A stretch of 64,000 nucleotides of DNA. It comes from Antedon mediterranea (taxonomy: Eukaryota > Animalia > Echinodermata). The stretch covers positions 14,906,371 to 14,970,370 of the forward strand of contig NC_092678.1 in the NCBI RefSeq assembly GCF_964355755.1. Reading direction: 5' to 3'. The translations under genes were made by a program, and so were the position numbers. Under the pieces are notes generated by a model. It was given only the letters and a program-made list of their open reading frames with translations, searched no databases and was not told the DNA's origin. Below, piece by piece: positions 11,835 to 51,525 of this stretch (within the stretch, counting starts at the first letter, position 1; every line of letters begins with the position of its first letter).

Positions 11835-11866
<32 letters not shown>

Positions 11867-20800: not shown

Positions 20801-23800
20801 TATAATAGGCACAACTCAGCCCTATAAGCTTATAATAGGATGGCAAACATAAACATTTTCCAATCGTATGTTAACGTACGTGCAGGTTTAAAAAAAAATC
20901 ATTTTAGTAAAATGATAAAAGTGATCACCTATAATTAATCAAAGTGACGAATTAAACTCTAGTTAGTATTGTTTTTGCTTTTGCTGTTGTTGTTAGATGA
21001 TAGTAATTGGCTAATTTTAGTATCAATAAATTCAGATATACCTAGAGGTACATAACATGAACGTATCAGCTTCACATCACAGAGTATGGGAAGTGTCTTA
21101 TCGTAATCATAGTGTTAACATTCAAAACATAGGATTGAATATTTAACAATAACAATAAATAACATATAATAACAATAAATATTTTGAAGTATAAAAAGAT
21201 ACATGTTTACCATAGTTATGTAAGTTACACATTGATATTAACGTAGTTCATTGTTTGAAAGTATTTGTATTAAAGTACTGTTGCTAATAATTAAGACGAT
21301 TTTTTTTTTATTTTATATTGAAGGTAATTGTAACTGAGGAAAACTCTGAAGCAGTTGCTACGCAGCTATCAGTCATTACTGGTGAAGTCAATATTGACAA
21401 TGAAAATAATATTGATGCCATTTCCTCGATTCTAGAAAGGTTAACTAATGTAAGTGCAGGAAATGAAAAAGTAAGCACTAACTGTATTTCCTAAATATGT
21501 ATTGTTCCCCAAAAACATGAAAAATGAAGGCCATTTTACAGTTAATTACCTCCTTACAAAACAAATCAAAGAAAATTGTTTTCACTCATAAAAAGAGAAA
21601 ATAAAAGTTTAAAATTCACCCAACATCTCTTTGACCTCCAGACAATTTGACTCTTTTTGCGTTAAATTACTTTCATGCCAAACAACAAATATTATGTATA
21701 TAACCAGAAAAAAAACCTATATGTAACATAATTTATTTTCCCTTTTTCATCGTTGATTGTTTCAATTCGTCAAATATATTGGAAAATATTAATCTTGTAT
21801 ATCACTTATTTTTCAGGTTACCAACTTAACAGTAAAAGTTGTGAGTAACTTACAAAATTCTGACGATGAACTATTTTCAACAGGCAATCGAAGCATAGGT
21901 GGAACTTCTAGGATCATACTGTCGCTTCAAGCTCAGCTAGCATCACTACCAGACTATAGAGCAGTTGAAAATAATCTAGCTGTGCAGACTAAACAATATC
22001 TTCCTGATGAATTAAACAATGGTATTGGGTATTTTATAAATGTAGCCACCTCTGAAACCGGTTTTCAAGGCGAGAACATTAAACCATTTTACACAGTGGA
22101 TGACGTCATAACTGAGAAGATAGATACATCAATATTTCTGCCTTCTGATATTGTTGAATTAAGTCTGGATCAAAATGACTTAAACAAGACTCAAGTGACC
22201 ATCATTGTATATCGGACATCTAAGTTATTTACGTCTAATTACTTGATGTCCAATAAGAGTAGAGCAATTGGGAGTCGTGTAGTTTCTGCTACTGTTGAAA
22301 AAGTTACAGTTGAGGGTCTGAATGAGCCCATCCAAATAACTTATTCACCGGTTGTGGTAAGTTACCTTTTCAGTCAATCTAAAATTGAAAAGTCTTAAAT
22401 AGGAATGTTTGTACATTATTGTGACCGAAGTATAGTATGTTTGAATTTGTGAGGTGGATAACTGGCCAATCTTGGGTTGAAGTCCTAGAAGCTAAGTCAC
22501 CCCAAGCTAAGGCTGATCTATTTTATCGTACAGTCAATAGCTATTAACTCTCACTTTCCACTTAAAACTTCTAAATGCATACAAACCTTAGATGACCCCA
22601 GAGATTAAGATTTTCATTAAAAAGCGAAAAGTAGCCTTTTGCCAAAACAAAATGTTCCTGTGGCGCTTCCTTAGAAACAAAATATTTTTCTCTATCAAAT
22701 CAGCAAAAAATCTATTACATTATGAGCAATACATTACAATCCCATCCCAACATTTCAGTCCAAAGTGACCACTTTGAAATTTCTAAGGCAATTGCCGCCC
22801 GATTGAACGCCATAAGCTTCCAGCCTACCTTCCAACCCTACATCCCCCCAGATTCAAATGTTCACAACCTTATCCAAAATTAACGCCAGAAAAGCCCCAT
22901 GACCAGATTGACTTCCTGAAAATTGATTAAAGAATTTGCATGCGAATTTACTATCTCTGTTATTAGTATTCTTAATGCATCCTTTGCCAAAGGTTCCATT
23001 CCTCATGTGGAAAGACGCCACTATTACCCCTATATCCCTAAACTTAAATCTGCTATTGTTTTAATTTTCGCCCTATGTCCCTCATGTCGATTCTAGAAAA
23101 AGTCTGTGAGAGGAATTTGTTTGTAAATGTGTCTGTAACGATATCTCCCCCCGAATTGATCATCATCAATTTGGTGGAATTAAGGGATCTTCAACAACTC
23201 ACTGTCTGGTTGAGATGATACTCTTTATAAAGGTTCTGACAAACCAAACACAGTCGGTACGTTAGTAGAGACTGACTTCACCAAGGCTTTTGATTCCGTC
23301 AATCATACGCTTGCAATCCAAAAAGCTTTTTGATCTTGGTGTTCGAAATGAAATACTGCCCTGGTTAGTAGACTTTCTTACCAACAGACGCCAAAGAGTT
23401 CGTTACCATTCCGAACTATCTGAATGGGTAACGCTCTCTTGTGGCGTCCCTCATGGCACTAACCTTGGACAAATTATTTGTAACGTTATAATTAACGATG
23501 CTGACGTATGTGATCTAGACAATTGGGCTAGTCACAACTTCCTCATACTCAATCCATCAAAATGTAAAGCCTTGCTAGTTTGTTTTAAAAAACCACCTCC
23601 CAATCCTCCAAACTTAGTTATAGGTGGTAAAGTGCTGGATTTTGTGCACGAAATAAAAATTATCGGTATCCCTATTCAAGCAAATTTAAGATGGGGATAC
23701 TCTTGTTAGCAATATGATTTCTAATAGTAGCCGTATATTATATTATGCTTAATCGCCTCAAGCGTTTTGGAGTTCCTGCTTGTGATTTGGTGTCCGTTTA

Positions 23801-26800
23801 TGTGGGATACGTTCGTTCTATTGTCGAGTACGCCTCAAATGCATGGCATAGTTGTATTACTATAAAACAGTCTCTCATTATATTGGGACCTAAGTACGAC
23901 ACATAATGTTAACGCCCTTATTGGTACTAATCTTCAGACGCTTGATACGAGAAGAATTTGCACATCGATCAATTACTTCAAAGAGTGGTTTCCTATTAAT
24001 TCTCATTCTCATAGCATGTACATTAGAACATCCAACGAATTTCTCATCCCCCGTGCTTGAACCGAAATATATGACAACAGTGCTATACTCTTTCTTGCCA
24101 AACTCCTTAATCACAAATGATTCGTATCTTATTGGTCGTCATGTGCAATTTCTCCTCGCGTGCTTTTTTTGGTCAATTTTCTATTTTGTATATTTTTTAT
24201 CTCGTCTTGAATGTTGTACCTATATATTTTTATATTTGTAGTCTTTAGATTTTTTGCCCTTTTGATGTGTACATTATCATGTTAATATTGTTTTAATTCA
24301 GCCTTGTGCTACGATTATGATATATTGAATAAATTGAAATTGAAATTGAAAAAAAAATTAAAGAATGGCGATATTATTAAGTGAATGATGATTACGTTTG
24401 AGTTTTGGTGCGTGTGAAAGTATTTCATAACGGCATTGACGGACGATGATTATAAAAACCCAATAAATTAGTCATTTGGATAAAAAATAAGGTAGTTGTT
24501 TTATAAAGCTAATACTGCAGTTTTATTTATGGGATTCCTTATATTGTCTACAATTTTTGCTGTGACATAACGTCAGTAGGTAGGCCTATAGTCTATCTAC
24601 CGAAAATAAGTTTACAGTACTTTTTATTTGTAATTGTATTTAATATATTATAGGAAGGTGTACTTGATAATTATGAATGTGTTTTCTGGGATTTTACATT
24701 ACAAAACGGACATGGTGATTGGTCTAACGAAGGCTGTTACTACAACACAACATCAGACGATCGTATCGTCTGCTTCTGTGACCATTTAACAAACTTTGCA
24801 GTCATAATGGTCAGTACTGCTTTCACATTATGTATTCGTTTACTTTTATTTATTTGGTTTTATGATGTTTTTAAAAAGGCATACCACGTAACAGCGAGGC
24901 TAGTTGAAAAATTATATAACATTGAATCTTCACATAATGATGGTTCATAGTGGTAGTTGCCTGAAATAGTGCCATTCGACCCAAGGTCCTAACTTGCCTT
25001 CGTCCCAACAACTTTTTAGTCGCGTGGAAGCGACTCTATAGTTCACTATGTCGGTCGGTCGGTCTGTCGGTCTGTCGGTCTGTCTGTCGGTCCGTATCAC
25101 TATGCGTTTTATCGCCTTCTGACCTTATCTTGATATCAGTTTAATCTAGCTAAGTCAATTTTTCACAGTATATTCCTTATGGCCAGGAATCGATGTGGTT
25201 ATGTTTTCACGGTGCGCAATAAAAAATTACGCGGTCTACGCACGATTTAACGAAATCACGTTTGTAATCATATCTTCACAACCATGAATCACAATTAAAT
25301 AAAAGCCACAAAGTTACGCGCGCACGCGCATTTAAAATTTTAAAATGCGCAAAATTCATTTTTAATCAACTTTCTACGCGTTTTTTGTCATTTTGAGCAT
25401 GTCAAAAATTCCCATAGGCGCGCAAATTTTTAGGCGCGTGGTGCGCACGTAGCGTTAAATACATACTTTTTCGCGTGATTTATGTTTTTGCAGCCTTTTC
25501 TAATAATTTTACCATCTTTTAAACAATTTCGACTTAAAATTACGTCCGAGCACGTCGAATTGGATAATTTGCGTACGATTTTGATGAAAAAGTTAAAAAA
25601 TTCGTCAAAATTATGCCTTTTTAGTCGCGTGGACGCGACTATAGTTCACTATGTCGGTCGGTCTGTCTGTCGGTCTGTCTGTCTGTCGGTCTGTCTGTTG
25701 GTCCGGTATCATTATGCATTGTAGCACGCGACTTAATGGCTGTTGGCCTTGTTTTTAATGAAGTTCCTAAAATCAGTAAATAAATAGATGAAATAAATAA
25801 GCCCCAAAAAACCAACACTGTACATAATTTCAGCAATCGTTATGTAAATTTGTCTCTGCTATTTGATGGACGTAATGCATTTGTTAACCATAGTATAAAT
25901 AATGTGTTTTTTTTAACAGGATTACTCTGGACAAGCCGGCCAAACCACTACATTCGAGGATGTACTTACATACATTAGCATCATTGGTTGCGTCATATCT
26001 ATCATTTGCTTGGTATTTACGATTGTTACATTTACATATTTCAGGTAAGATTAAACAACAAACTAAATTTACATACATGACACCAGTTAGTATTATGATT
26101 TCATTATTATCTTTTTCACCATTTTCTAATCAAATGTACTCAGAGCCTATACAGTGTCACGATGATGTAATTGTGCATTGTACAGTAGGTAGTCAAACAT
26201 TTTTGTTTGTATTCGCTTCTGCCAATGATTATGAAATCATGTTCCGAATATGAGCACTTTTTCTATAATTTACAGTATGATTTATATATAATTTACACAG
26301 TGCTACGCAACATCATTGATTTACATATACACAATAATATTTAAAAACCGTTGCGAATTAAAGTTGGAATTTATTCTGACTTGTTAAGCCTCCACTGATT
26401 GTGAGGGCGTTTGTTGTATGAGAGAATGTATCTGGTGGGTGAAAATCTGTGATAATACCATACATGGCTCTGTGGTCTAGTGGTATGATACTCGCCCTGT
26501 AAGCAAGAGGTTGCAGGTTCGAATCCAGCCAGAGACATTTTTTCATACAACTAAAAAATACGGAACTTTCGCCAATGAGCTATGCTCGACGCGATTATGA
26601 AATCATGTTCCGAATATGAGCACTTTTTCTATAATTTACAGTATGATTTATATATAATTTACACAGTGCTACGCAACATCATTGATTTACATATACACAA
26701 TAATATTTAAAAACCGTTGCGAATTAAAGTTGGAATTTATTCTGACTTGTTAAGCCTCCACTGATTGTGAGGGCGTTTGTTGTATGAGAGAATGTATCTG

Positions 26801-27377
26801 GTGGGTGAAAATCTGTGATAATACCATACATGGCTCTGTGGTCTAGTGGTATGATACTCGCCCTGTAAGCGAGAGGTTGCAGGTTCGAATCCAGCCAGAG
26901 ACATTTTTTCATACAACTAAAAAATACGGAACTTTCGCCAATGAGCTATGCTCGACGCGATTATGAAATCATGTTCCGAATATGAGCACTTTTTCTATAA
27001 TTTACAGTATGATTTATATATAATTTACACAGTGCTACGCAACATCATTGATTTACATATACACAATAATATTTAAAAACCGTTGCGAATTAAAGTTGGA
27101 ATTTATTCTGACTTGTTAAGCCTCCACTGATTGTGAGGGCGTTTGTTGTATGAGAGAATGTATCTGGTGGGTGAAAATCTGTGATAATACCATACATGGC
27201 TCTGTGGTCTAGTGGTATGATACTCGCCCTGTAAGCGAGAGGTTGCAGGTTCGAATCCAGCCAGAGACATTTTTTCATACAACTAAAAAATACGGAACTT
27301 TCGCCAATGAGCTATGCTCGACGCGATTATGAAATCATGTTCCGAATATGAGCCCTTTATCTATAATTTACAGTATG

Positions 27378-27436
<59 letters not shown>

Positions 27437-29084
27437 ATTAAACACATACTTAAAACTACATTTACAACAACGTGGTTTTAGAATTTTTTTTAAAATTTAT
27501 TTAGAAAATTACTTGGAAAACGTTCCCAACGTATACTGGTCAACCTGTGTTTTTCTCTGCTGCTCCTATACACTACATTTGTGATCGGTATTGGGTTAAC
27601 ATCCTATCCCAATTGCTGCATCGTGGTAGCCATTCTTCTACATTATTTTGTTCTCACTACACTTTTCTGGATGCTTGTTGAAGCCGTGAATATGTATCTG
27701 CAATTCATTTTAGTGTTTTACGGTGGAATACGTTTTTTCGTGTTGAAGTCTGCTTTAGTTAGCTGGGGTAAGTAGATACGTTTTAGCTGCCGTATTATTC
27801 GTATTAAAGCATAGTACCGTGTCAGCGTATGCATCCCCCTAACCCCGTACCGTAGTAATTCCTCTATTGCTTCGCGTCGGACTTTATAGACTCTTCAGTA
27901 AGTTATCCTTCAGTATTTGCCTAAAGATATTATTAACAAAAATGAAAACATAAACAAAAATGTACATCGTAAAATACATCAGGATACATTTAACAGTTTT
28001 GCTTATTTCTTTTTGAACAGTTCTTCCTCTCATACCAGTTACAATAATTGCTGCTGTGAAGTGTGATGAAACATATTCGAATGGCGATTAGTAAGTTTCT
28101 ATTTATTGAGCAATTTCAAAAAGTGCAAAACAACGTTTGAGAGAGGCCAACTGGTAGTCGTTGTAGGCCCATAGACCCTAACCATGAAAGGCTGAGATTT
28201 CTCCTTGCCCTGGCCTTACTATTGTTCATTCAGGAATGTTGTTACTCAATTATTCAGCAATCTGTCCATCCACGATATTGGCTAAATAATTATTAAACTG
28301 TACGATTAAACTAGCCATCTATTCAGTGAAAGATCTAAACTATTTGATTTACAGTACTTATAATTTACACCACATGCTGTTGAATCTGGAATAGCTCCAT
28401 ACTATGTAATACTAATGCAACTTGTATTGCTAATATTGATACTAGTACGGTATTTAAACACATGCATTATTGACTTCTGCAATAAGATAACCAATTATAA
28501 AATAGACTTCACACATTAAGTTATACTTTTACGCTTACATTTTACTAAAACGTTAAAAAGTTTTGCTTAACGTTTATACTTCATGTATACAATCATTAAC
28601 AGACATTTTAACCTTATTTTGCCCACTCAGTTGTTTTATGAAACCTGGAAACCCGCTATACTTCGGTTTGTTACTCATCTCATCTATCGTCCTCTTCATC
28701 AACATGGTCATTTTCGTATTCATCATTCGAGGACTGACTTGCCAACGAACAGTAACGTCGTCAAAACTGAAGGATAAAAACAAAATGAACGAGCTGACTA
28801 CACGCTTATGTCAAGCCATATCGATAATGATGCTGCTTGGCTTAACGTGGATCTTCGGATATTTCTCCATTCATTCTTCTGACGAAATTCGTTTTTCGTT
28901 CCAAATGTTGTTCTGCGTATTCAATTCCCTACAAGGATTTGTTATCTTCGTATTTCTCTGTATTCGTCGTAAGGATGTTCGAGATTCGTGGGCAAGTTGT
29001 TTCCGTTGTCTACGAACCGAAGCCACTGGAAGCAGCACTGTCATGTCAAATCTCCAAAGTAGGATTTCAAATACCAAACTTTGA
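1869..29084 (+). CDS. Adhesion GPCR (ADGRG-like; EGF, HormR-like, GAIN/GPS, 7TM), 3' ten exons; 5' part lies upstream of the window
   Basis: Exons 1869-1994, 10501-10605, 11000-11109, 21324-21470, 21817-22356, 24654-24809, 25920-26044, 27505-27767, 28021-28090, 28631-29084. All have AG/GT boundaries and phases join (2096 nt from a phase-1 start, no internal stop). Motifs: GPS CVFWDF...W...GC...CFCDHLTNFAVIM; family-B TM motifs LLHYFVLTTLFWMLVEAVNMY, LLGLTWIFG, FNSLQGFVIF. Confidence 0.88.
2382..4900 (+). pseudogene. Kolobok THAP-DDE transposase remnants
   Basis: THAP C2CH pattern (CMAFGCSN...RVCSDHF...RLKPNVVP) at 2382-2768. CSICGS...CHNNHRGRWESQP...GNLDLAGGILFTG at 4440-4685. GDSRSDTPGHNAKY (GDGRCDSPGHxAKY-like) at 4725-4900. 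Fragmented. Confidence 0.75.
3593..4218. mobile_element. Non-autonomous TTAA-specific element (Kolobok-type) nested in the Kolobok
   Basis: TTAA at 3589-3592 and 4219-4222. Imperfect TIR agccccattccctac / gcagggaaggggtct. Confidence 0.7.
5120..5266 (-). pseudogene. KolX (P2X7 ballast-like) accessory gene remnant of the Kolobok
   Basis: Minus strand reads MEYGLVPYQLEPRR (PYxFEP-like start) and, in another frame, LKTALVARSDIRVHELKEPIPNE. Convergent to the transposase, as in Kolobok elements. Confidence 0.5.
6162..10175 (-). mobile_element. Rearranged cluster of Helentron-associated (HINE) family A copies
   Basis: 3' end (reverse complement of hairpin aattcgtcaaagtgacgaatt plus ctagt) at 6162-6192. 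5' palindromic subTIR near 7240-7275. A + strand fragment at about 7276-8180. A second minus fragment ends in three tandem 5' ends at about 10010-10175. Homologous to 11121-20963 and 29243-31755. Confidence 0.75.
8370..9789 (-). mobile_element. Non-autonomous Helitron (family B)
   Basis: On the minus strand it starts TCTATTTATAAATTTACGTAAGGGC and ends in a GC-rich hairpin plus CTAG. Inserted between A and T without a TSD. Joining the flanks restores HINE sequence (tttcattaa|tatgtgataatgaattatgg). Confidence 0.88.
10501..10605 (+). CDS. aGPCR exon (HormR-like, part 1)
   Basis: aag|GT...GACA|gtgagt, phase 1-1, CPHEVVMAKGVNYTFEYASLGMLAHSLEVCGAGD. Confidence 0.7.
11000..11109 (+). CDS. aGPCR exon (HormR-like, part 2)
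   Basis: tag|GT...GAG|gtaggc, phase 1-0, PLAERMCNRNLHGGVGIWEAIKVKLCDNYTIDELVE (RxC...GxW...C). Confidence 0.75.
11550..11709. mobile_element. Harbinger/Tourist-like palindromic MITE
   Basis: TIR agctttgtctacact / agtgtagacaaggct. TTA duplicated at 11547-11549 and 11710-11712. The empty site gaattaggcc is present in another HINE copy. Confidence 0.8.
11838..19996 (+). mobile_element. L2-clade LINE (ORF1 coiled-coil plus SGNH esterase; ORF2 APE-RT), degenerate
   Basis: ORF1 pieces at 12398-14036 (IILHAGTNN...DGTHLN esterase). APE at about 14190-15028 (VSETW, GDFNIH, LDLIIT, SDHFAI). RT at 17665-19679 (LLDLSAAFDTVDH, VPQGSVLGP, YADDTQIY). L2-type 3' end gcgccttgag...gcgctataaaaat(att)n. Probable TSD tacattt at 11831-11837 and 19997-20003. 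Confidence 0.88.
15029..17649 (+). mobile_element. 5'-truncated Tx1/L1-clade LINE inserted in the L2 ORF2
   Basis: RT KTPGCDG, NWRPITLLNTDYK, DFRKAFD, GIRQGCPLS, QLADD and a C-terminal CCHC (CNNCGVIEDEKHMFYYC), with one frameshift near 15880. AATAAA and an A-rich tail. 15-bp TSD aaaacaattaggcaa at 15014-15028 and 17650-17664. Confidence 0.92.
21324..21470 (+). CDS. aGPCR exon (GAIN subdomain A helices)
   Basis: aag|GTA...AAA|gtaagc, phase 0-0, VIVTEENSEAVATQLSVITGE...ILERLTNVSAGNEK. Confidence 0.78.
21817..22356 (+). CDS. aGPCR exon (GAIN domain)
   Basis: cag|GTT...GTG|gtaagt, 540 nt open, SIFLP...IIVYRTSKLF...IGSRVVSATV...LNEPIQITY typical of GAIN. Confidence 0.88.
22600..24352 (+). mobile_element. 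Degenerate CR1/L2-group (Daphne/Crack-like) LINE RT fragment
   Basis: Disrupted DFTKAFDSVNH, WLVDFLTNRRQRVR, GVPHGTNLG, LNPSKCK. 3' tail aataaattgaaattgaaattgaa. Start boundary approximate. Confidence 0.75.
24654..24809 (+). CDS. aGPCR exon: GPS autoproteolysis motif and Stachel
   Basis: tag|GAA...ATG|gtcagt, EGVLDNYECVFWDFTLQNGHGDWSNEGCYYNTTSDDRIVCFCDHL|TNFAVIM. Confidence 0.93.
25013..25755 (+). mobile_element. DINE-1-like HINE (family C), with two 5' modules
   Basis: tttttagtcgcgtg subTIR with a nearby cgact inverted copy and a (GTCG/GTCT)n microsatellite, at 25013 and again at about 25618. 3' subTIR cacgcgact, small hairpin and T-run at 25726-25755. Confidence 0.75.
25920..26044 (+). 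CDS. aGPCR exon: TM1
   Basis: cag|GAT...AG|gtaaga, DYSGQ...LTYISIIGCVISIICLVFTIVTFTYFR. Confidence 0.9.
26466..26537 (+). tRNA. tRNA-like gene or pseudogene (tRNA-Pro-like body, TGT at anticodon position), copy 1
   Basis: A box TGGTCTAGTGG, B box GGTTCGAATCC, 72-nt cloverleaf and TTTTTT terminator. G>A change in the anticodon stem relative to the other copies. Confidence 0.5.
26832..26903 (+). tRNA. tRNA-like gene or pseudogene, copy 2
   Basis: GGCTCTG TG GTCT AGTGGTAT GATA CTCGC CCTGTAA GCGAG AGGTT GCAGG TTCGAAT CCAGC CAGAGAC A followed by T6. Confidence 0.55.
27198..27269 (+). tRNA. tRNA-like gene or pseudogene, copy 3
   Basis: Identical to copy 2. Confidence 0.55.
27505..27767 (+). CDS. 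aGPCR exon: TM2-TM4
   Basis: tag|A...TGGG|gtaagt, KLLGKRSQRILVNLCFSLLL...CIVVAILLHYFVLTTLFWMLVEAVNMY...LVSW. Confidence 0.92.
28021..28090 (+). CDS. aGPCR exon: TM4/ECL2
   Basis: cag|TT...TA|gtaagt, LPLIPVTIIAAVKCDETYSNGDY. Confidence 0.88.
28631..29084 (+). CDS. aGPCR exon: TM5-TM7 and C-tail ending in TKL
   Basis: cag|T TGT TTT..., LLGLTWIFG, FCVFNSLQGFVIFVFLCIRRKDVRDSW. Stop TGA at 29082-29084. Confidence 0.92.
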
Positions 29085-29242
29085 AACCACTACATTACGT
29101 ATCTCTTACCACATGCTAATATTCAGATTGCTCTTGAATAGTTGTTGAAATGTATTACATTTACGAGATGTATTATAAAGAAATTATAATCATTTTCTGT
29201 GATAAAAAAACAATATTTAAGTGGAAAAAATACATTATTATA

Positions 29243-31755
29243 ATTAGGTGATCATTTAGAATAAAATGATCACCTATTGTTATTGTATGAAATCTTTATT
29301 TTTCTTTTTATTGTTTCTGTACACTATTTTGTGTAACAATTATCTCAAAAAGTTTAATGTCAATGATTACTAAAATTTCAGAATAATATGTTTCAAATAA
29401 TATAACTTAATCCTAATAAGCTTTCCAGCGTAATCACTCATCCATGACGTCATTTATACGCCATTTTGTTAAATCACATTATCAATCATATCTCCATAAT
29501 TCATCATCACATATTAATGAAATTCACTACACGTAAACTTCAGGTCAAGGGTAAAAATATTAGCAAATAAAAAGTTGCGCGTTTCAAGGTCATGCCCGTG
29601 AAATCGTCCGTTAAAAATTAAAAAAGCTCAAAATTAAGTTTTGATCAATTTAGAGCATGAATTAGGCCATTTGCGTGTTTTAAAAAATTACTGCGCAAAA
29701 ACTCATTTTTGCGGACGCGATTTTTAAAAAGCGTAAAAAATAAAATTTGATGTATACATCACATTCTACTCACAATCCTTATTAGTACATTCTCCGACTT
29801 TGAGTCCATTCCGAGTTAAAATAACGCTATACGAGCACGTTAAAAATGACAAAATGTGCACATTAATTGTACAAAAGTGCTAAAAATGGTAAAAAATAAG
29901 GCCTTTTTAAAATGAATATAACTCTTCAGAATGGCAGGTGACCCCCAATTTGTTTTAACTTATTATGGAAGCCAATAAGTTGTAGATATAAATATATATA
30001 CATATTAGACATACAAAATGGTATGACGTCATCAAATGGCCACATGAAAATTAGTAATTTTTATCTTTTTGTGTGGTTTATCGAATTCAATAGAGCGCAT
30101 CTCCGTTATTTGAGCCCGATTTTCACACAAATTTTAGTATATGCTTGCTCAATTAATTATCTTTCTTATGAGTTGTCAACATTTTTATTTTGATGACGTC
30201 ATCACGCGTAAAAACTTGAATAACCTAGGTGGTGTAATTTCAGCTACACCATACAATTGAATATCTTATAGCTCTTCAGAATTAAAGGTGACCTTGAAGA
30301 TTATAACTTATTATAAAAGCTGGTAAAATGTAGATATGAATTCATATAAAAATTAAGCCTATCGGATGTTGTGATGTTATCATATGGCCAGTTGAAGTTA
30401 AAAAGTAGTTTTTAAATTTCTTTAGTCGAATTTATACAAATTTCAAAGAGCGCGCATTGCGTTTCTACGTGTCAAATTCTCTTCCAAACCTTATATTTAT
30501 TTGCTCAATTCATTATCTTTCGAAATGGTCATCTTCGAGTTTATTTTGATAATTCCATCATACCAAAAATTTAGAACACGATGTGGGTCCCGTATTTTCA
30601 CCTATGCAACACTGTATATAGATATACAGTATATACTCTACATATTGTATGACACATAATAGGTACTCAGCACTATAACGCCCGTATTCTTAAACCGGAC
30701 TTTAGTTGTAGTTCAAAGTTCGACTTGAAAAAGTCGTAGTTTGAGCTATTACTTCAAATTCGATTCAAAAACGAAGTAGTCGAAGTTTGCAGTTCGACTT
30801 AATGAAGTCGAGCTTTTAGTCGAGTTGCACACGTCTGGGTAACAAAGGATAAACATTAGCCAATGACAAGAGAGTATTTGAGGAGCAGACGAAATTTTGC
30901 GCATTGATATCCCTTTCCATTTTCTTACAAAATGTTTACGCATCAGGATTATATACATGAAAAATAATTTTAATCGTTAATTATTAGAACAAGATCAGTA
31001 TTAATTTAACAGTGAAGTACTTTTGATTAACAACAAACAAAATCTTCAAAATATATTTAGGAACCATGGCGGTAGGGAAACTTTCATATTTTCTAGGCCT
31101 CCAACAAAGTATGATCGCGATGAACCACGCACTTCCTAGCGTGACAAGAAAGCGCTAGGCCCCCTAAACATTCCATCGCGTGGTGAATTGCCGCATCTCC
31201 CATTGTCGCTATGGCGTGACGTAGTTCAAGTCGGACTTGCGCGAAGAAAATAATGTAATTTGTATACAGTTGTAAATAAAGATGATTTTCATTATTATAA
31301 CTTATACCAATGTATATTTAATTAAGCTAATATAAATATAGATATTTCATTCTTCAATATCTGGCCAATATAACAACTCAATGACTGTTACGTTTTTTAT
31401 AAACATCTTTTAAAAACCATTTAGTCGACCATTTAACCTGCCCCCTCCAGGACTAAAAAAATCGATCAAAATCCGTCTCGATTTAGTCGAGGTTGGCCTG
31501 ATTTAGTCGGTGATTTAGTTGAAGTTCGGTTTATGAATTAAAATGACGTCATTTTTTTAGTTTTATCTCGAACTACGACTAAAGTCCGGTTTAAGAATAC
31601 GGGCGTTAGTGTATATGCATCATGTTATAGGATGGCGTACGTCAACTTTTTACGATTGTATGTTAACGTACATGCTTGTTTAAAAAATGTTAATTTCATT
31701 AAAATGATAAAAATGATCACCTATAATTCGTCAAAGTGACGAATTAAATTCTAGT
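29243..31755 (+). mobile_element. HINE family A, most complete copy
   Basis: 5' subTIR taggtgatcattt with an adjacent inverted copy aaatgatcaccta. 3' subTIR aaatgatcaccta followed by hairpin aattcgtc-aaagt-gacgaatt and ctagt. This is the DINE-1/Helentron terminal architecture. Confidence 0.85.
30679..31605. mobile_element. MITE (probably Harbinger-type) nested in the HINE
   Basis: TIR cgcccgtattcttaaaccggactttagt / actaaagtccggtttaagaatacgggcg, flanked by TAA and TTA. Absent from the other HINE copies. Confidence 0.8.
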
Positions 31756-31885
31756 TATTATTATTATTATAGGTACAAGTAGGATACCTAAAATTGTGGT
31801 GTTAGATCATTATAATGTAACACGTATAATCTGGAATTTCTAATTTGTATGGAAATAGTTATTATGTATTGTTTATTTGTTACAG

Positions 31886-34800
31886 GTGTAGTTGTGGCAT
31901 CCAGTTCAAATCAAGGTATGTCATATTTATTATGGTTTTGGTTATAGATTAAGTGAATATTAATTAAAAGTTACAACTTTCTTAATTATTCACTGTTGCA
32001 CAGAAAAAGGACATTTTGTATAATAAACAATGTTACAACATTGCGTACAAACAATGGTAATTACAATAATTGTTAAAGTAACATCACACTTTGATCACTT
32101 TTAGGAAATTGTGATGAAAGCGAATGCTCACCACAAAGTCGCCAAAGTCATTCAAGTGAAGGTAAATTACCCGTAGATAAAGATAATAACTCGATAAACT
32201 TTCGTATGCAATTTGAGGTCCAGAGAATTTGACTTCAGAAATTAGTTTAAGATGGTCTAACAATCATTTTTGGCTTGGTTACACATTTTGAAAAAGTGGC
32301 GAAAGGTCAAAAGGTCAGGGTGAAAGGTTATAAGACTAAACACCAATAGGTTCTTAAATCTCGACAACCACTGGTCACAGCGAGATCTCAAATTGATCAG
32401 AAGGTATACATTTATATTCAGTCTAATGGGACATTATAGTAAAAAATGACCGGAAATGCCATTTATGACCTTTGACACACACCCCACGGCATGTATGTAT
32501 CTCCATAACTACTGGTCGTAGACACTTGAATTTGGTCTTAAATTGTACAAAATATACATTTTGTTATTTGTGCACATTCGAAAAATGTTACAAAAGGTCA
32601 AAGGGTCAGCGTCAAGGGTTATATGAACAAACACAAATAGGTACTTGTATCTCGGCAACCATTGGTCACAGCAAGTCAATTTTAGTCTCAAAATGTTTAG
32701 AAGGCATAAATTCATATTCAGTCGAAGGGGAAATTTTAGTCAAAAATTATCAGATATGCCATTTCTGACCTTTGACTCACGTATCAGGGCATTTTCATAT
32801 CTCTGTAAGTACTGGTCGTAGAAACTTAAATTTGGTATCAAATTGTTAGAAATACACATATTTACATTCATTCTAACAGAAAATGTGGTTAAAAGATGAC
32901 CTGAAACACTATTAATTACTAATGTTTCAAACAAAAAACAAAATCTACACAACTTATCCTTAGACAGTAATGTTATGCAATAACTGATGATTTAATGATT
33001 TCATTATAAGAATTAAAACAAATCCTATACAGTTATTGCTGTCCCCGAGGACGATCAAACATTTTGATTTTGCTCAGCAGTTCTTTTTAGAATTCTAGAA
33101 TTACCTTACCATATTTATCCGAATAAACGCCCCAGGCATTCAATGTTCAGATGGGTTTTTAGGGGAGGGGAGGCATCTTTTTTTTGGGGGTTTATGCTTG
33201 TTAAATTGTAGATTATAGTAGTTATTGAAATGTGTTGTGATAAGATTATTGTGTAAATGCATGTGGCGGGGCGTTAATCCAAGGGAGGAGGAGCGTTTAT
33301 TCCACATGATATTCTATTGGGATGAGGAGGGGGTGGCATTTATTTGAGGTAGTCTTTTATTTAAAGCGGGTGTTTATTCCTCTAAATACTCCAATTTTAA
33401 TAATTATATATAATTCGTTTCCCAACTGATAAAAAGGTACTTTACATGATGCGTTTTCCTCTTTATGCTTTTGTAACGAAATATTTCTGTCTTTTAGATT
33501 AATAAAAGTGAAATTGTCATAGATTCCATTAAATGGATCTTCTCCAGGTCCCAGTATAATAATATAAAACAATGCGTATCCGGATATTCACCCCCTGGAC
33601 ATTTACCCCCGGAAAACTACCCGCCGGACAACCACCACCTGAACCACTACCCCCTTAGGACAACTACCCCTTTAGGAAAACTACCCCCGGACAAATACCC
33701 CCGGACAACTACCCTCTTAGGACAACAACCCCCTTAGGACAACTACCCTCGGACAATTACCCCCTAGGAACAATTACCCCCGGAAAATAACCCCCGGATA
33801 ATTACACCCCCCCCCCCCCCGGGTAATTACCCCGCGGACAACTACCTCTGACACAATACTCCCCGTAGGACAACTACTTCCTGGACAATACTCGGAGGGC
33901 AAATAATCTTTTAGGACAACTACCTCCGTAGGACAACTAACCCCTGGACAACTACCCCCCGGAGAATTACCCCCCGGGTAATTACCCCGTAGGACAACTA
34001 CCTCCTGTACCTGGAGTTCTAGGACACCTACCCCCTAGACAGTTACCCCCGGATGTTTACCACCATGACAACTACCCCCTTAGGAGAACTACCCCACGGA
34101 CAACTACCCCCCGGACAACTAATCCCTTAGGACAACTACCCCCTTAGGATAACTACCCCCGGGTAACTACCCCCGGGTAACTACCCCCGGTCAACTACCC
34201 CTGGTCAACTACCCTCCCCCCCCCCCCTCCAATCCAAAAGTAGACAAACATATAAATATATAGGACCGGTTTCTGTAAAAATGAAATCATCTGTTTTTAA
34301 CGGGTGTTTCGAAACTAGAGACCCGAGACCAGAGACCTGACACGAGACCCAATACGAAAAGGGAGACCTATATTTGGTTCTCCCTTTTCGTATATTAGGG
34401 TCTCCCTTTTCGTATAGTGTGGTCTCTCTTTTCGTATAGTGGGGTCTCCCTTTTCTTATAGTGGGTCTCCCTTTTCGTATATATGGGTCTCCCATTTTGT
34501 ATATTTGGGTCTCCCTTTTCGTATATTTGGGTCTCCCTTTTCGTATACTTAGGTCTCCCTTTTTGTATATTAGGGTCTCCCTTTTCGTATAGTGGGGTCT
34601 CCCTTTTCGTACGTGGGTCTCCCTTTTCGTATATTTAGGTCTCCTTTTTCGTATTGGGTCTCGGGTCTCTGGTCTCGAGTCTCTAGTTTCGAAACACCCG
34701 TTTTAACCGATTATTCTGTTTAACATCACGCTAGACCCTAGATGTGCTAGATTTAAAGTACCGTATTTATTGTTTATGTGGTTTTTAGGTGGACATTTAT

Positions 34801-37800
34801 TGGAAGAAAGTTGTTTATTCAATGGGAGGGGGTATAATCTAATGGAAATAGACGCCGATTATTCCATATGATGTTTCATGGTAGTGACATGATCACCGTT
34901 TATTTCAGGGGAATTTATTTAAAGATTGCCGTTTATTCGGTGAGTGAACATTGAGGTCAAATATCCGAAGTGATATTATTCTTCAAGTGTACAAAAATAC
35001 ATATATGACAAATTTGAGACAAAAATTAATTCTTTTAAGACCAGTAGTTATCGAAGCATTGTCCTGACGCAAAAATTATTATTATTATTAGCGAACCCAG
35101 TCTTTACAGTAAATACAGGGAGTACCATATGATACGTTCGACTATCCTATGATCATGTTTGACAATCTTCAGTTTATACCAGGCTATATTTATGTTCAAT
35201 CTTTTACTTTTGTTTACAATAATGAATAGTAATTCGTCAAAGTAACGAATTAAAATATAGTTATTAATTCCTATTATACACTGTTGCAGAGTCAGGATGT
35301 TGAATGGTCTGGGTGGTAGTTGTCCGTCCGGGGGGTAGTTGTTCTAAAAGGATAGTTTTCTGGGTGGTAGTTGTCCAGGGGTTAGTTGTCCTACGGAGGT
35401 AGTTGTACTAACAGATTATTTGCCCTCGGAGTATTGTCCAGGTCCCGTATCCGGATATTCACCCCCTGGACATTTACCCCCCGGAAAACTACCCCCCGGA
35501 CAACCACCACCTGGACCAATACCCAATTGATCTTTATTAATTTGCAGTATAACTTTTATTTTTTAACTACCGAACCTTCACACGCGTGGTCCGATCCGAA
35601 AATAAACAAAAAACTAACATTCGTGGTACATCTAAGGCGGAGTTTTATACCGAAGTTTTTCCATTGTGCTCGCCTATGTCAGAATTAACCATAATTTATA
35701 TATAGATTACAGTTACAAACAGTAAAGGATTTGTTGTAATTCCTATAATAAAACCATTAAAGCATCAGTTATTGCACAACATTAATTACTGTCTTGTAAG
35801 TTGTGTAGAGATACGTTTTTTGTTAAAACATTAGTAATAGTATTTCTGTTCATCTGTTAACCACATTTTTTATTTCTATAAATGTATATTTCGAACAATT
35901 TGATACCAAATTTAAGTTTCTACGACCAGTACTTACAGAGTAATTAAGATGCTCTGATATGTGGGTCAAAGGTCAGAAATGGCATGTCTGATCAATTTTG
36001 ACTAAAATGCCCCATTATACTAAATATAAATGGATGCCTTCTGAACATTTTCATACCAAAATTGACTTGCTGTGACAAGTGGTTGCCGAGATACAAGTAC
36101 CTTTTTTTATTTGTTCATATAATATACCTTTTGTAAAAAATGTCTAAATGTGTAAAATATATTTCCGGTCATTTTTTACTAAAATGTCTTATTAGACTGA
36201 CTATAAATGTATAGCTTCTGATTAATTTGAGACCAAAATGACCTGGTTGTTGAGATTTAAGGACATATTGGTGTTTTGTCTTATAACCTTTCACCTAACC
36301 TTTTGACCTTTCGCCACATTTTCCAAAAATGTTTAACCAAGCCAACAATGATTGTTTAACCCCCCTAAACCAATTTCTGAAGTCAAATTCGCTGTACCTC
36401 AAAGTGCATAAGAAAGTTGATCTAGCTACTAGAGTAATTGGGTATTGTCACGTGTTTAAATATATTTTGTTATTTTGACACAGTCTATTTTAAGTCAATG
36501 CTAACAGAAAAAGTATATAAAGAATCTATAAATATTCAGCTCTCTTTTAAGAAATTCTTCAATAGGCTCATCTTTGATAACCAACAAGTGGTCCTAAATT
36601 ACAAAATTTAAAGACTTTGTTCCTTAGTTAGACAATAGGTACAAAAATAGGCCTAATATTACAGATTTCGCTGATTCTTAAATCATTTTGTTTGATTTTT
36701 ACGGTACACACTCTTGCATCTTAATGTAACACAACGAAAACTATTTTTGTTACAGGTGTTGCGGCATCAAGTTCTAATCTAGGTATGTTAATTTTATTTA
36801 AATTTTCTTCCTTTTAAAATTGAAAAAGTAGTGTCTCTTAATCATTTAAAGACTATTTAAAAACAAATTGACACGGCAAAACCTTAAATATTTTTCAATT
36901 TTTTAATACAAAACAATTATTATTTAACAATTTAAAATTCAATTATAATTTATATCTTTCAATGTTCAATTTCTCCAAACTTTTATATTGTTCTTTTTCC
37001 GTTATATCAGGTAACCACCTAAATTGAAGTTTTGTTTTCTTTTTTCGTGAATATGTTGAGCTTTATTATATTTTTAGGGTGTTTTTATCTGTTGTAGTCA
37101 CAATGTTCTCTATCAAGGTTAAATAAATAAATAACGGTTTAGAGATTATGTGGAATAATTCACTTCCCATAATTGGCATCAAACAGTAAAAGTGTTTGAT
37201 ATTACACAGTATAAACAGTTTACAACATTGTGTGTGAACATGTGCCATTCTTAAATTAATGCATAATATTGAAGAAGATCATATATGTGAATTATTTTAC
37301 ACATATTATATAAGTAGCGTCTCGTTGTGATTATTGTTAGGCAGTATTAAGAAGAACGAACAAGAATGTTCTTTATTGGGTCACCGATATCATCCTAGTA
37401 AAAGACTAGATACAAATCATATACTGCAATGGTTATTGTTAAGCCGATGAACAAGATAAGATGACACAATATGTGTTGATACTGAATACAATGTTACTCT
37501 TAAATTATTATTATATAAAACAACACAAAGATAAAGTCTTGATTATAAAAATAACAAAGTCAGTGAGTATGTTATTACTGTGGTGTATATTCTAATAAGC
37601 TGAAAATAATCGATATCAACTAACAACTCATCTAATCATATGACTCTTGTATAAAAAAACTTTTTTTGAATGTATTTTATTATACAGAATCAGCCGAGAA
37701 GAAATTTCAGACGATGTTGCTACATGTATCTACCTGGTGTGATCAGCATGACCTACTTGATAAGCTGAAGTTGTTGTGCAATGACATGATAACAGATTAC

Positions 37801-38223
37801 AGTGACCTACAGAACGCCGGAAGCACCATGGAATTATTCAATGTATTAAAGCGCTGTGGCCATCTTACAGTCACCAAGTTTAAAGTTCTTATCGACGCAA
37901 TTAATGTCACTGGTTCCAATGGTGTTCTTGAGGTCAACAAACTGCTAAAAGACACGTATGAAGAAGCCGACCACAATGTAAATTCTTTCTCTCCATATCG
38001 ACAAAAGCTGATCAAATTCGGTAAAGCACTTTCTGAAGAAAATATAACAACGCTTACTCACCTTAAAGGTTTTTCAAGGAAACAACGTAAGAACCAGTGG
38101 ACTATAATACTAGATCTCGAACGAAGACGTATCATTACAGAAGAAGGATTGCAATCGTTTATTGATGATTTAAAGGAGAATGGGATGAATGTTGCTGCTG
38201 AAAAGTTAGAAGATCCGATTTAG
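31886..38223 (+). CDS. Micro-exon linker plus terminal tandem death-effector-domain (DED-DED-like) exon; no first exon visible
   Basis: Phase 1-1 micro-exons 31886-31915 (VVVASSSNQ), 32105-32161 (NCDESECSPQSRQSHSSE) and 36756-36782 (VAASSSNL), each with a pyrimidine tract, AG acceptor and GTA donor. Phase-1 terminal exon at 37688-38223. Confidence 0.65.
33575..34230 (+). repeat. GC-rich ggacaactacccc minisatellite-bearing element
   Basis: Dozens of ~15-bp variants of ggacaactacccc. The head cgtatccggatattcaccccctggacatttacccc recurs at 35446, and an inverted partial copy lies at about 35310-35440. Confidence 0.8.
34301..34700. mobile_element. MITE with an internal ~21-bp tandem repeat
   Basis: TIR cgggtgtttcgaaactagagac / gtctctagtttcgaaacacccg, with ttttaa on both flanks. 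Internal repeats of ggtctcccttttcgtata. Confidence 0.85.
37688..38223 (+). CDS. Tandem DED-like exon (caspase-8/cFLIP prodomain-like)
   Basis: cag|AA, open 178 codons. Repeat 1: FQTMLLHVS...LDKLKLLC...MELFNVLKRCGHLT...VLIDAI. Repeat 2: FSPYRQKLIKFGKALSEENITTL...ILDLERRRII...FIDDLKENGM. The YR..L...L and LE....I patterns are DED-like. Stop TAG. Confidence 0.75.
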
Positions 38224-44376: not shown

Positions 44377-44844
44377 AAGGTAATGTACTGTATGTTAATT
44401 ATTATTAACATGATGCAACTGCTCTTGGTATAAATAATACATTTTAGCTACTTTCGATTAATTTGATTTAAAAATATTTATTTTTTTTAAATATAACATG
44501 GTTTTTTTTAGGAAAGAAGCAATGCTCTACATGTATATCTAAGTGGTAGATATGTTAAACCTACGTTAGAAATAGTGACTAATCTCATTATGCTTGGTGT
44601 ATCTCCAACATTACAAAATAAGGTAAAGTACATAAGAGTGGGCATATATTCCCGTGATCTAGAATTGTGTAATTATCGGGTGGCACTCAAACACACCTCA
44701 GATCACGAGTGTGGTGTTCATAACTCTATATATCTACATCAGACTGGTTACGACAATCATATACAGTTGGACACCTCTAGCGTTCGTGGTACCGAGATCA
44801 AATCTGTTAATGTGAAACGAAATAATATTATCTGCATCGTTTTC

Positions 44845-45820
44845 ATATTGATATAATTCGGTCTACGTTCACATCATATTCACAGGCAAAACCTTTTATT
44901 TCAATTTCTTTTTGTATTATTTATCACGACCTAACTATACTTAGTTGCTCCAATAACCTGTATGTATAAACTTTTCTGATTATAATTTTTTTTATAGGAC
45001 GGAAACACCCCACTGCATGAGTCATTTGAATGATAGTTGTTTAGCGATTTGTTTCCTCAAATCATTATAATCAAAATTCTAGCAAATTGTCTACGTCACC
45101 CATGTACCATGCATGTACACTATACTAGTACAAAAATGCCTTTCATTAAATGTTACTTTAAACTTAATTGCAAATACAGTTACAAACAAAATCATTTTAT
45201 TAACATTAATTATAAATACTATAACTTTATTGCGTGAATTAGTTACCTTTGAAGAGATGTAATTTATTATTGCCTGAGTTATTACCAGATTTAGGGAACA
45301 GTTATTTTGTATGGAAGGATGGCTGCACTCAATTTTAAGTTTTTCAAACGTATTTACAGATTGTTCACTACGTTTAAATTTAATATAGTAATTAAATAGT
45401 ATATAGTGTAAGGTAAGGACTTATCATATTTTTATTACGTCTTACTAAGGCAAAAAAGGCGTAAAATAAGTTTGGTCACGTGATTGATGTAAATACGTCA
45501 CCCGCGGAGCTACAAATTGGAAGGCCAAGGATGGTCATTCTATATTAAATTTACGGCGAAATTATGTTTATTTATCTGTTTTTTTACCCCATTTCAAAAT
45601 GTAATGTTTTGGTGTGATGTCACTTACAACAATGGCATCAAGATATTCAATAAGGACACGAATGAATTATGACTGGCTGGAAGAACACGCCGCGGAATTG
45701 TCAAACGTTTCTATTCCAGTACGAATACTAGTTTTAATTACAACTATCTCATATTATTGCATCTTCCATAACACTCAATACTAATAGATTCCCATAATAT
45801 TCATGGTATGATATGATATG
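44845..45820 (+). repeat. Segmental duplicate (partner at about 57270-58250) carrying a truncated ankyrin exon
   Basis: Both copies contain ag|gacggaaacacccc..gcatga..gtcatttgaatgatagttgtttagcgatttg and ggaagaacacgccgcggaa..caaacgtttctattccagtacgaatac. Confidence 0.8.
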
Positions 45821-46236
45821 TATGCATAAACTACACGATTATGATTTCTTTTATGATTCTGTTAAATTAAAATATAAGAGACAATTGATATAATTCGGTC
45901 TACTTTCACAAGATATGCACAAGAAAAACGTTTTATTTCAATTTCTTTGTGTGTATTGTTTATCATTATCTAACTATAATTATTTGCTGCAATACACGGT
46001 TTGTATAAACTTCATGATTATAATTTCTTTAAAGGACGGAAACACCCCGCTGCATGAATACCTGCGTTCAAATGAACCTACCTTAGAAGTAGTTAACTAT
46101 CTCACGAAGCAAGGTGCATCCGTAACAGCACTAAATAAGGTAATATAATGGCTACAGATAAATTATATGATTACACCTAAAGTGCGAATGATCTGCGCCG
46201 CAAACGTATCTTATCCATTATATTTTTTTATCATAT

Positions 46237-49965: not shown

Positions 49966-50559
49966 CTTGCTGCTAGTTGTTTTGCAAGCATTGTGTTTGG
50001 CGCATTTGCATATAGGTGATGTTTTGGTTAACTACCTGGTTTTTCTGTCTGCGCGTCAGAAAAGCTTTTGTTGCAAACACAGGAAGACGTGATTTTTGTT
50101 ACCGTGTTGTATATATATATTATTAAGCCGTTGTTGAAGTTACCATTAGAAATGGTTGATTGCTGTACGATCTTTCGTTCTTAGTTAGTAAATACATCAT
50201 TCAAGTTGATTCAGGGTTTTTCCTTTCTTCGTTCTCTTTATTTTCTGAGTGACGTTGAGTTGTACACAATAAATGGTCTGGTAACGGCAATCAACAACTT
50301 GTTGTCTTTCTGTTGGTCTTGATATTGCATTCATTTGAGCCAAGCCTCGCACGCTTGATACCCGGGGAGAAAACTTCCAAATCAATCCGGGCATGGTCTC
50401 ACACGTACCACGACAATATCATATCAGAGGTCAATGTGCTATAGATGGTTTTAATTCTTCCTTTTGTTGACATTTCTTGGTGTGTATCGTGATATTTTTT
50501 CTCTTGCATCTATTATTTTTACATTATTTTCAAACTGTATAGTTACACAATCAAGTTCC

Positions 50560-51490: not shown

Positions 51491-51525
51491 ACTAAGTGCT
51501 GCCTTACGTTCGTCTTCATTATTAT

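What the first reader, a model, noticed from the sequence alone, without database searches (positions are those of the whole stretch)
28631..38223. Candidate adhesion-GPCR / tandem death-effector-domain fusion receptor with a switchable C-tail
Seen in sequence: downstream of the aGPCR are three phase-1 micro-exons (30, 57 and 27 nt) and an intact phase-1 terminal exon with two DED-like repeats. Nothing resembling a first exon lies between the aGPCR stop and 31886; that gap is almost entirely a HINE plus a MITE. The last aGPCR exon has an in-frame phase-1 donor, CAA A|GTAGGA at 29058/29059, and a second one, C|GTAAGG, in helix 8. Splicing from 29058 gives an open frame ...TVMSNLQ-SVVVASSSNQ-GNCDESECSPQSRQSHSSE-GVAASSSNL-ESAEKKF...DED-DED...EDPI*. 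Read-through instead ends in TKL, a class-I PDZ-binding motif common in aGPCRs. Established: GAIN/GPS receptors are autoproteolysed adhesion or mechano-sensors, and tandem DEDs nucleate FADD/caspase-8 filaments. Inference: one locus could make either a PDZ-tailed GPCR or a 7TM death receptor that recruits DED proteins directly. The donor is only moderately strong, and an orphan duplicated 3' gene fragment is a real alternative.
Basis: partly seen in the sequence, partly recalled or inferred. Interest (0 to 1): 0.85.

Follow-up and report, generated by a model that had tools for sequence, protein, structure and literature searches.

The report
Adhesion GPCR beside death-domain gene tail
In a feather star, an adhesion receptor gene lies directly in front of four intact exons predicted to code a double death-effector domain; these are likely the detached tail of an immune-type Roco GTPase gene, although a young receptor–death-domain fusion remains possible and untested.

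Summary
The exons, phases and open joined frame are as described, and a tandem DED fold is supported. The fusion reading is unproven and less likely than a relic.

Against fusion:
- The DED exon's three database relatives, all from Antedon, are a COR-DED protein (90% identical), an Ank-Roc-COR-DED Roco protein and a DED-only model.
- A same-strand Ank-Roc gene begins 6.3 kb downstream.
- 0 of 8 crinoid relatives of the receptor carry a DED, and all read through the proposed donor. The closest (90%) also ends in TKL.
- A diverged copy of micro-exon 1 has other DNA upstream.

For fusion:
- Without two transposons only 280 nt separate the stop from micro-exon 1.
- The donor is plausible (top 3.5% of GT sites).
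- This receptor copy departs from its paralogs 7 nt after the stop, and its nearest AATAAA lies inside the transposon.

No splice junction could be tested. Odds: relic Roco-type tail beside a TKL-ending receptor 0.55; real fusion isoform 0.25.

The parts
10501..28090 (+). Adhesion GPCR, eight upstream coding exons (10501-10599, 11000-11109, 21324-21470, 21817-22356, 24654-24809, 25920-26044, 27505-27767, 28021-28090): GAIN, GPS, TM1-4. The more N-terminal exons were not found in the window.
   Evidence: tblastn with crinoid receptors; the nine exons join open for 653 residues plus stop; Pfam GPS E 3.8e-17 and 7tm_2; no N-terminal exon in 1-21323 at E<0.09
28631..29084 (+). Last 7TM exon (TM5-7, helix 8, C-tail ending TKL, stop)
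   Evidence: 90% identical over its whole length to P0003 = XP_071959919.1, which also ends TKL
29056..29064 (+). Candidate internal phase-1 donor (cut 29058|29059); use not shown
   Evidence: 2.25 bits; top 3.5% of window GT sites; above 5 of 17 reference donors; paralog contigs keep the GT with a weaker exonic side, 0.27 bits
29085..29239 (+). 3' flank of the receptor; paralog contigs run on unlike from 29092; no AATAAA or ATTAAA, only variant hexamers
   Evidence: table 7
29240..31760 (.). High-copy repeat with terminal hairpin and CTAG end (Helitron/HINE-like, label recalled); holds the nearest AATAAA (29260) followed by a T-rich tract
30676..31608 (.). Inverted-repeat element (MITE-like) nested in the larger repeat
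   Evidence: 57-nt arms, 84% complementary
31886..31915 (+). Micro-exon 1, 30 nt, phase 1/1; a diverged form exists elsewhere in the genome with other upstream DNA
   Evidence: table 8, records 16, 24, 32
32105..32161 (+). Micro-exon 2, 57 nt, phase 1/1
   Evidence: donor 5.0 bits, acceptor 2.5 bits
32184..36431 (.). Nested repeats filling the intron between micro-exons 2 and 3 (long inverted arms, GC-rich tandem units)
36756..36782 (+). Micro-exon 3, 27 nt, phase 1/1, local duplicate of micro-exon 1
37688..38223 (+). Terminal exon, predicted tandem death-effector domains; 90%, 62% and 57% identical to the C-termini of Antedon P0001 (COR-DED), P0002 (Ank-Roc-COR-DED) and P0015 (DED only)
44512..62506 (+). 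5' part of an Ank-Roc (Roco-type) gene: ankyrin exons 44512-44622, 46035-46139, 55930-56034, 56828-56932; Roc exons 62055-62211 and about 62409-62506, the second with a frame break; runs beyond the window

Best explanation
An adhesion GPCR gene ending in TKL is followed by three micro-exons and a terminal exon predicted to code two death-effector domains, and these four exons are likely the left-over 3' end of a Roco-type (ankyrin-Roc-COR-linker-tandem DED) gene rather than part of the receptor. Shown: the anatomy; the Roco-type identity of the DED exon's two long relatives; a same-strand Ank-Roc gene 6.3 kb downstream; the conserved read-through tail. Inferred: a receptor cluster and a Roco cluster lie side by side on this chromosome. 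A deletion or duplication junction within about 200 nt of non-repeat DNA, or at the transposon, removed the ankyrin-Roc-COR part of one Roco copy and left its tail behind the receptor. The receptor's main product would be a GAIN/GPS-cleaved 7TM receptor with a TKL end, its transcript probably closed at the AATAAA inside the transposon. Any splice from 29058 into micro-exon 1 would be minor read-through.
For: (1) DED exon, longer proteins: 2 hits of 556 candidates, COR-DED at 90% and Ank-Roc-COR-DED at 62%. Near-length: 1 of 66, DED only. None has 7tm_2. (2) Ankyrin and Roc exons like P0002 (Roc exon 74%) start at 44512 on the same strand, so tail and head stand as in a tandem array; no Roco exon lies upstream of 37688 in the window. 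The downstream gene has a frame break and broken ankyrin copies, as in a birth-and-death family. (3) P0001 and the closest receptor P0003 lie on contigs of the same length, 26,055,566 nt, read as one chromosome. (4) Last 7TM exon: 10 hits of 253 candidates, none with a DED listed; 0 of 8 crinoid receptors scanned have DED at E<=0.05. All 7 aligned continue in frame through the donor position, and P0003 ends TKL. (5) Paralog contigs in three DNA runs of one sample match through the stop to 29091. (6) A contig with a diverged micro-exon 1 (12 differences and 2 gap letters in 31835-32016; AG and GT kept) carries 349-409 nt upstream that are unlike the window next to 31835, and no joint to the receptor exon is among the 15 of 83 joints shown. 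Its depth is about six times that of the window's own contigs in X2 and X3; the tool warns this is not a copy number. (7) Phase-1 GT sites are common after TM7 (8 of 12), and 3 other GT sites of equal or higher score lie inside coding exons of these genes (4 in 2211 nt, the candidate included).
Against: (1) Micro-exons 1-3 do not match the linkers of the three DED relatives (shuffles reaching the score: 443, 1450 and 741 of 2000), so the exact source gene is not identified. (2) The junction would have to fall within about 150 nt after a stop and about 125 nt before an acceptor; without the transposons the donor-to-acceptor distance is 306 nt, like the gene's short introns of 253, 346 and 400 nt. 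(3) The DED exon shows no decay: 4 window-derived against 4 P0001-derived changes, 10 ambiguous; splice sites are strong. (4) The donor is the best GT between TM7 and the transposon, and stronger here than in the paralogs (2.25 against 0.27 bits). (5) P0003 is a poor model (two GPS motifs, TM1-3 missing), so its end is weak evidence on transcripts. (6) The 'longer' searches stop at 2000 residues and say themselves that finding nothing is weak evidence.
Confidence: 0.55

Rival explanations
1. A real, probably young chimeric gene. The receptor copy lost its own 3' end and its transcript can splice from 29058 through the three micro-exons into the DED exon. This would give a GAIN/7TM receptor with a 38-residue serine-rich linker and cytoplasmic tandem DEDs, beside the TKL form. 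Ligand- or force-driven clustering would seed DED filaments with caspase-8/FADD-like partners (inferred from vertebrate DED biology, recalled).
For: Open frame and matching phase. 306-nt spacing without the transposons. No first exon in the non-repeat gap. Paralogs depart from this copy 7 nt after the stop. No canonical poly(A) signal in the non-repeat flank. Donor in the top 3.5% and stronger than in paralogs. Intact DED exon without decay. The linker mismatch to Roco relatives suggests the DED exon moves between genes.
Against: No 7tm_2+DED protein among the 13 hits of three searches. Relatives keep the read-through tail. An AATAAA with a T-rich tract sits 176 nt after the stop. The changes that strengthen the donor lie in a local degenerate repeat, and the same 10 letters occur in the paralogs' 3' flank, so a neutral local conversion could explain them (inference).
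Confidence: 0.25
2. The four exons are expressed but not with the receptor. They splice from an exon upstream of the window (the receptor nested in an intron of a long same-strand Roco gene), or from a transposon-derived start giving a stand-alone tandem-DED protein of the cFLIP-S/vFLIP layout.
For: Intact exons and strong acceptors. A DED-only model exists in Antedon (P0015, 219 aa). All four DED sequences keep a Met near the exon start.
Against: No Roco exon in 1-37687, so the intron would exceed 31 kb and hold a same-strand gene with its own splice sites. No usable first exon in the non-repeat gap. Three micro-exons with lengths divisible by three suit internal coding exons better than a leader.
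Confidence: 0.15
3. The neighbourhood is an assembly mis-join across the high-copy repeat at 29240-31760.
For: The join runs through a very high-copy repeat.
Against: Contigs with no difference bridge the receptor tail into the repeat's start (28949-29266/29267 in X2-X4). The repeat has both its ends in order, like other copies in the window.
Confidence: 0.05

Closest known systems
Antedon mediterranea Roco-type proteins XP_071960745.1 (COR-A + DED, 535 aa) and XP_071964214.1 (Ank-Roc-COR-DED, 1205 aa); DED-only XP_071964237.1
   Same: C-terminal tandem-DED module, 90%, 62% and 57% identical, ending the protein and preceded by a low-complexity linker.
   Different: Here no ankyrin, Roc or COR exon precedes it in the window, and the linker exons have no significant match. 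All three are unnamed database models.
Crinoid 'ADGRG6-like' adhesion GPCRs (XP_071959919.1, XP_071960613.1, XP_071960614.1, XP_071959932.1, XP_071961264.1; Anneissia XP_033125664.1, XP_033109223.1, XP_033125662.1)
   Same: GAIN/GPS + 7tm_2 sequence; the C-tail runs through the proposed donor position.
   Different: None carries a DED (0 of 8). Only the closest ends in TKL.
Roco proteins with death-fold domains (Trichoplax Roco genes with CARD and death domains, PMC4104024; DAPK1, recalled) and clustered, exon-shuffling Roco genes of brown algae (PMC11378527, PMC4104024)
   Same: Roc-COR with repeat N-terminus and death-fold partner; one repeat per exon; clusters with pseudogenes (passages read).
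   Different: The crinoid form uses ankyrin exons and two DEDs. I did not see a tandem-DED Roco in the passages or listings.
Tandem-DED proteins: caspase-8 prodomain, cFLIP, MC159/vFLIP; FADD and PEA-15 DEDs
   Same: Fold of each repeat and two-repeat layout.
   Different: Only 10-22% identity; no PDB sequence match. Binding surfaces were not tested.
GPCRs with built-in C-terminal effector domains (GPCR-PIPK, GPCR-TKL/K, GPCR-TK; PMC12716839) and splice-switched aGPCR tails (latrophilin-3; PMC10830413)
   Same: Precedent for a 7TM fused to a cytoplasmic effector, and for an adhesion GPCR whose splice variants differ in signalling and scaffold binding (passages; abstract and section list).
   Different: Those effectors are kinases, not death folds, and those fusions and splices are documented, while this one is not.

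Membership tests
Adhesion GPCR (class B2) | GAIN domain ending in a GPS motif with the HL|T cleavage site and a TxFAVL-type tethered agonist | tested here: met
   Pfam GPS E 3.8e-17, GAIN weak (E 0.01-0.02); HL|TNFAVIM in the joined frame; consensus TxFAVLM quoted in PMC12716839
Adhesion GPCR (class B2) | 7tm_2 domain in one open frame | tested here: met
   7tm_2 on two exons, E 2.8e-12 and 5.6e-12; nine exons join without a stop
Adhesion GPCR (class B2) | Signal peptide and N-terminal adhesion domains | tested here: inconclusive
   Not found in 1-21323; may lie upstream of the window; relatives have a SUEL lectin
Adhesion GPCR (class B2) | Autoproteolysis and G-protein coupling | not testable with these tools
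   needs experiment
Tandem-DED proteins | Two consecutive death-effector folds | tested here: met
   Repeat 1: FADD DED Z 10.7, rmsd 2.0, 84 aligned. Repeat 2: PEA-15 DED Z 9.3, rmsd 2.3, 76 aligned. Ranks 1-9 are all DED entries. Model pLDDT 63 with a low-confidence linker; Z is within the range the tool calls common for helical folds; Pfam below cut-off.
Tandem-DED proteins | Homotypic DED binding or filament formation | not tested
   no complex job sent
Roco (Roc-COR) gene as owner of the four exons | Roc and COR exons upstream in the same transcript | tested here: not met
   none in 1-37687 at E<=1; sequence upstream of the window not available. The cassette is therefore filed as a Roco-type tail, not as a Roco gene.
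Roco (Roc-COR) gene as owner of the four exons | Terminal exon belongs to the family found on Roco proteins | tested here: met
   90% to COR-DED P0001 and 62% to Ank-Roc-COR-DED P0002
Roco (Roc-COR) gene as owner of the four exons | Linker exons homologous to Roco linkers | tested here: inconclusive
   no significant match; low-complexity, short sequences
aGPCR-DED fusion receptor (proposed) | Open frame from TM7 to the DEDs | tested here: met
aGPCR-DED fusion receptor (proposed) | Transcript joining 29058 to 31886 | not testable with these tools
   the contigs laid cover introns and behave as DNA
aGPCR-DED fusion receptor (proposed) | Same architecture in a paralog or relative | tested here: inconclusive
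   0 of 13 hits and 0 of 8 receptors scanned; word-based searches up to 2000 aa only; the two wide searches gave no answer

The most novel reading that the evidence does not exclude
A rearrangement between an adhesion-GPCR cluster and a Roco immune-gene cluster has created a young chimeric gene in a feather star. One locus makes either a TKL-tailed adhesion receptor or a seven-helix death receptor carrying its own tandem DEDs, the choice set by competition between a transposon-supplied poly(A) site and an internal splice donor.
Probability: 0.2. Interest if true: 0.8.

Novelty: new variant of a known kind. Interest (0 to 1): 0.4.

Why it matters
If the best reading holds, the locus is a rearrangement scar in two fast-evolving gene clusters. 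Its by-product of interest is a crinoid Roco type ending in tandem DEDs, which would link an ankyrin sensor and GTPase directly to the caspase-8 pathway. If the fusion is real, it would be a GPCR wired straight to the extrinsic death machinery and a case of gene birth caught early. I found no such receptor in the listings, and the terms death domain, death effector, FADD and caspase-8 occur 0 times in the held part of a 2026 aGPCR review. One RT-PCR decides it.

Tried and rejected
- RNA evidence: no RNA holder listed. X1, guessed as RNA, also covers an intron (28193-28359) and the repeats, so it was not used as RNA.
- Holes in contig cover are not counted as evidence: the window's own form was not seen at 31904-32061 or in much of 28600-28949, and no paralog contig lies on 29104-29224. 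No record spans the repeat at 29240-31760.
- Copy number and flanks of micro-exon 3 and the DED exon were not measured.
- No whole genome is held.
- The 1.84-billion-protein search and the ESM Atlas gave no answer, so architectures beyond Antedon are unsurveyed.
- Metagenome contigs: 63 pattern matches, none confirmed.
- PDB by sequence: 0 hits for the DED exon. The profile of A2 was swamped by ankyrin repeats.
- Single-sequence fold too poor to use (pLDDT 47).
- The paralogs' 20-letter 3' flank has no match in the window at up to 3 mismatches.
- Helix-8 donor rejected as weak.
- Faster change in this receptor's last exon (8 against 3) is not significant (p 0.23).
- Earlier findings: nothing for this genome or sequence; the eight GPCR-fusion notes concern other domains and were not used.
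- Searches used off-by-one exon ends, corrected.
- The donor matrix rests on 17 sites from the window, including the three micro-exon donors and one uncertain site (10600).

Full report
Source. The best protein matches are from the feather star Antedon mediterranea (90% for both genes) and from Anneissia japonica, so the window is read as Antedon or a close crinoid. No whole genome is held.

Observation. The coordinates are right. The receptor's last exon is 28631-29084. Micro-exons lie at 31886-31915, 32105-32161 and 36756-36782 and the terminal exon at 37688-38223, all phase 1, and the join from 29058 is open. Nine receptor exons from 10501 join into 653 residues with GAIN, GPS and 7tm_2; the N-terminal exons were not found in the window. 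A scan of the 8.6 kb between stop and terminal exon returned only micro-exons 1 and 3 as strong symmetric exons; micro-exon 2 missed the acceptor cut-off. The terminal exon scores with Pfam DED on repeat 1 below the cut-off. A four-sequence model (pLDDT 63) matches DEDs with both repeats (Z 10.7 to FADD, 9.3 to PEA-15), and its best Foldseek rows are caspase-8/cFLIP tandem DEDs, though none reaches E 0.001. The gap after the stop is a high-copy repeat (about 29240-31760) with an inverted-repeat element inside; 280 nt remain without them.

Where the DED exon comes from. Among longer proteins 2 of 556 candidates matched: a COR-DED protein (90%) and an ankyrin-Roc-COR-DED protein (62%). Among proteins of similar length 1 of 66 matched, a DED-only model. 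In the window a Roco-type gene begins at 44512 on the same strand, with 105-nt phase-0 ankyrin exons and Roc exons 74% identical to P0002. It has a frame break in the second Roc exon and two broken ankyrin copies. No Roco exon lies upstream of the DED exon. The layout is therefore receptor, Roco-type tail, Roco head. One gap in this reading: the micro-exon peptide has no significant match to the linkers of the three relatives, so the parent gene is not identified.

How the receptor ends elsewhere. Of 253 candidates 10 matched the last exon, none with a DED listed, and a fresh Pfam scan of 8 crinoid receptors found none. All 7 aligned relatives continue through the donor position, and the closest ends in TKL. 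That model is itself irregular (two GPS motifs, TM1-3 missing), so it is weak evidence on transcripts. DNA contigs of paralogs from one sample match through the stop to 29091 and then run on unlike; they keep the GT but have the same residues there as P0003. That TKL is a class I PDZ-type motif is recalled, not tested.

The donor. With a matrix from 17 window donors it scores 2.25 bits: top 3.5% of GT sites, above 5 of 17 reference donors, and the best between TM7 and the transposon. Three other equal or better GT sites lie within coding exons, and 8 of 12 GT sites after TM7 are phase 1. It is usable, not diagnostic. The paralog form scores 0.27. The four changed letters lie in a local degenerate repeat, so a neutral origin is possible (inference).

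Micro-exon 1 elsewhere. One contig in each of three runs matches 31835-32016 with 12 differences and carries 349-409 nt upstream that are unlike the window next to 31835; no joint to the receptor is among the 15 of 83 joints shown. Its depth is about six times that of the window's own contigs in X2 and X3, taken only as 'several copies'. A longer intron in those copies cannot be excluded.

Mechanism. Two breaks in homology, at 29091 and 31835, bracket about 200 nt of non-repeat DNA plus the transposons. I read them as the scar of a rearrangement that put a Roco-type tail behind a receptor (inferred). The receptor's nearest AATAAA is at 29260, inside the transposon, with a T-rich tract behind it; the non-repeat flank has only variant hexamers. 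Ending there gives the TKL receptor (0.55). The same facts keep the fusion alive: without the transposons the donor and acceptor are 306 nt apart, like the gene's short introns, there is little room for a first exon, and the DED exon shows no decay (4 against 4 derived changes). I give a real fusion isoform 0.25, expression from another upstream exon 0.15 and a mis-join 0.05. No junction could be examined, because the contigs laid behave as DNA.

Literature seen. Search listings only: (0 papers with adhesion GPCR + death effector domain + echinoderm). Passages: PMC4104024 (Trichoplax Roco genes with CARD and death domains; clustered Ectocarpus Roco genes); PMC11378527 (exon shuffling, pseudogenes); PMC12716839 (GPCR-kinase and GPCR-PIPK fusions; 'death' 0 times); PMC2246102 (amphioxus aGPCRs, two with C-terminal domains marked in a figure I could not see; 'death' 0 times); PMC8195603; PMC13197933 (term counts in the first 300,000 of 412,554 characters); PMC6208332 and PMC6321704 (nothing on a fusion). 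Abstract and section list: PMC10830413. No supplements were read; domain tables there could list rare architectures. In these searches I found neither a GPCR-DED fusion nor a tandem-DED Roco described; subscription papers are not covered.

Verdict. Observation confirmed; interpretation partly supported. Most likely an adhesion GPCR beside a detached Roco-type tandem-DED tail, with about a one-in-four chance that the fusion is really spliced. Interest 0.4.

Noticed in passing
window 44512-62506 (+), continuing past 64000: Roco-type gene with one ankyrin repeat per 105-nt phase-0 exon (92-95% identical copies at 46035, 55930, 56828), broken copies near 44998 and 57419, and a frame break near 62437 in the second Roc exon; likely a pseudogene or an assembly error.
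   Followed up: partly
P0002 (XP_071964214.1) and P0001 (XP_071960745.1): Crinoid Roco architecture ankyrin-Roc-COR-repetitive linker-tandem DED, unnamed in the database; P0002's linker is about 13 copies of a 10-12-residue unit.
   Followed up: partly
window 29046-29091: The receptor's C-tail is a degenerate local repeat of about 21 nt; four differences from the paralogs cluster in the 6 nt before the candidate donor.
   Followed up: partly
window 2376-4685 (+): THAP-domain frame (Pfam E 5.5e-7) and a following frame, probably a DNA transposon.
   Followed up: no
window 12395-19593 (+), inside the 10.2-kb receptor intron; 39292-40509: Reverse-transcriptase and endonuclease-like frames of non-LTR retroelements, apparently nested and broken (read by eye).
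   Followed up: no
window 26227-27389: Three near-identical tandem copies of a 366-nt unit (99%), each with a tRNA-like stretch read by eye, in the receptor intron between TM1 and TM2.
   Followed up: no
window 47444-48980 and 54149-55676: 1.5-kb inverted duplicate pair (94%) within the Roco gene's introns; a retroelement polymerase-like fragment at 46892-47296 (-).
   Followed up: no
window 53777-54100 (-): 107-residue coiled-coil-like frame with a weak Pfam match (Card1_endonuc E 7e-4, below cut-off); unexplained.
   Followed up: no
window 32184-36431: Fold-back structure: long inverted arms (80-92%) enclosing GC-rich 14-17-nt and 22-nt tandem repeats, between micro-exons 2 and 3.
   Followed up: no
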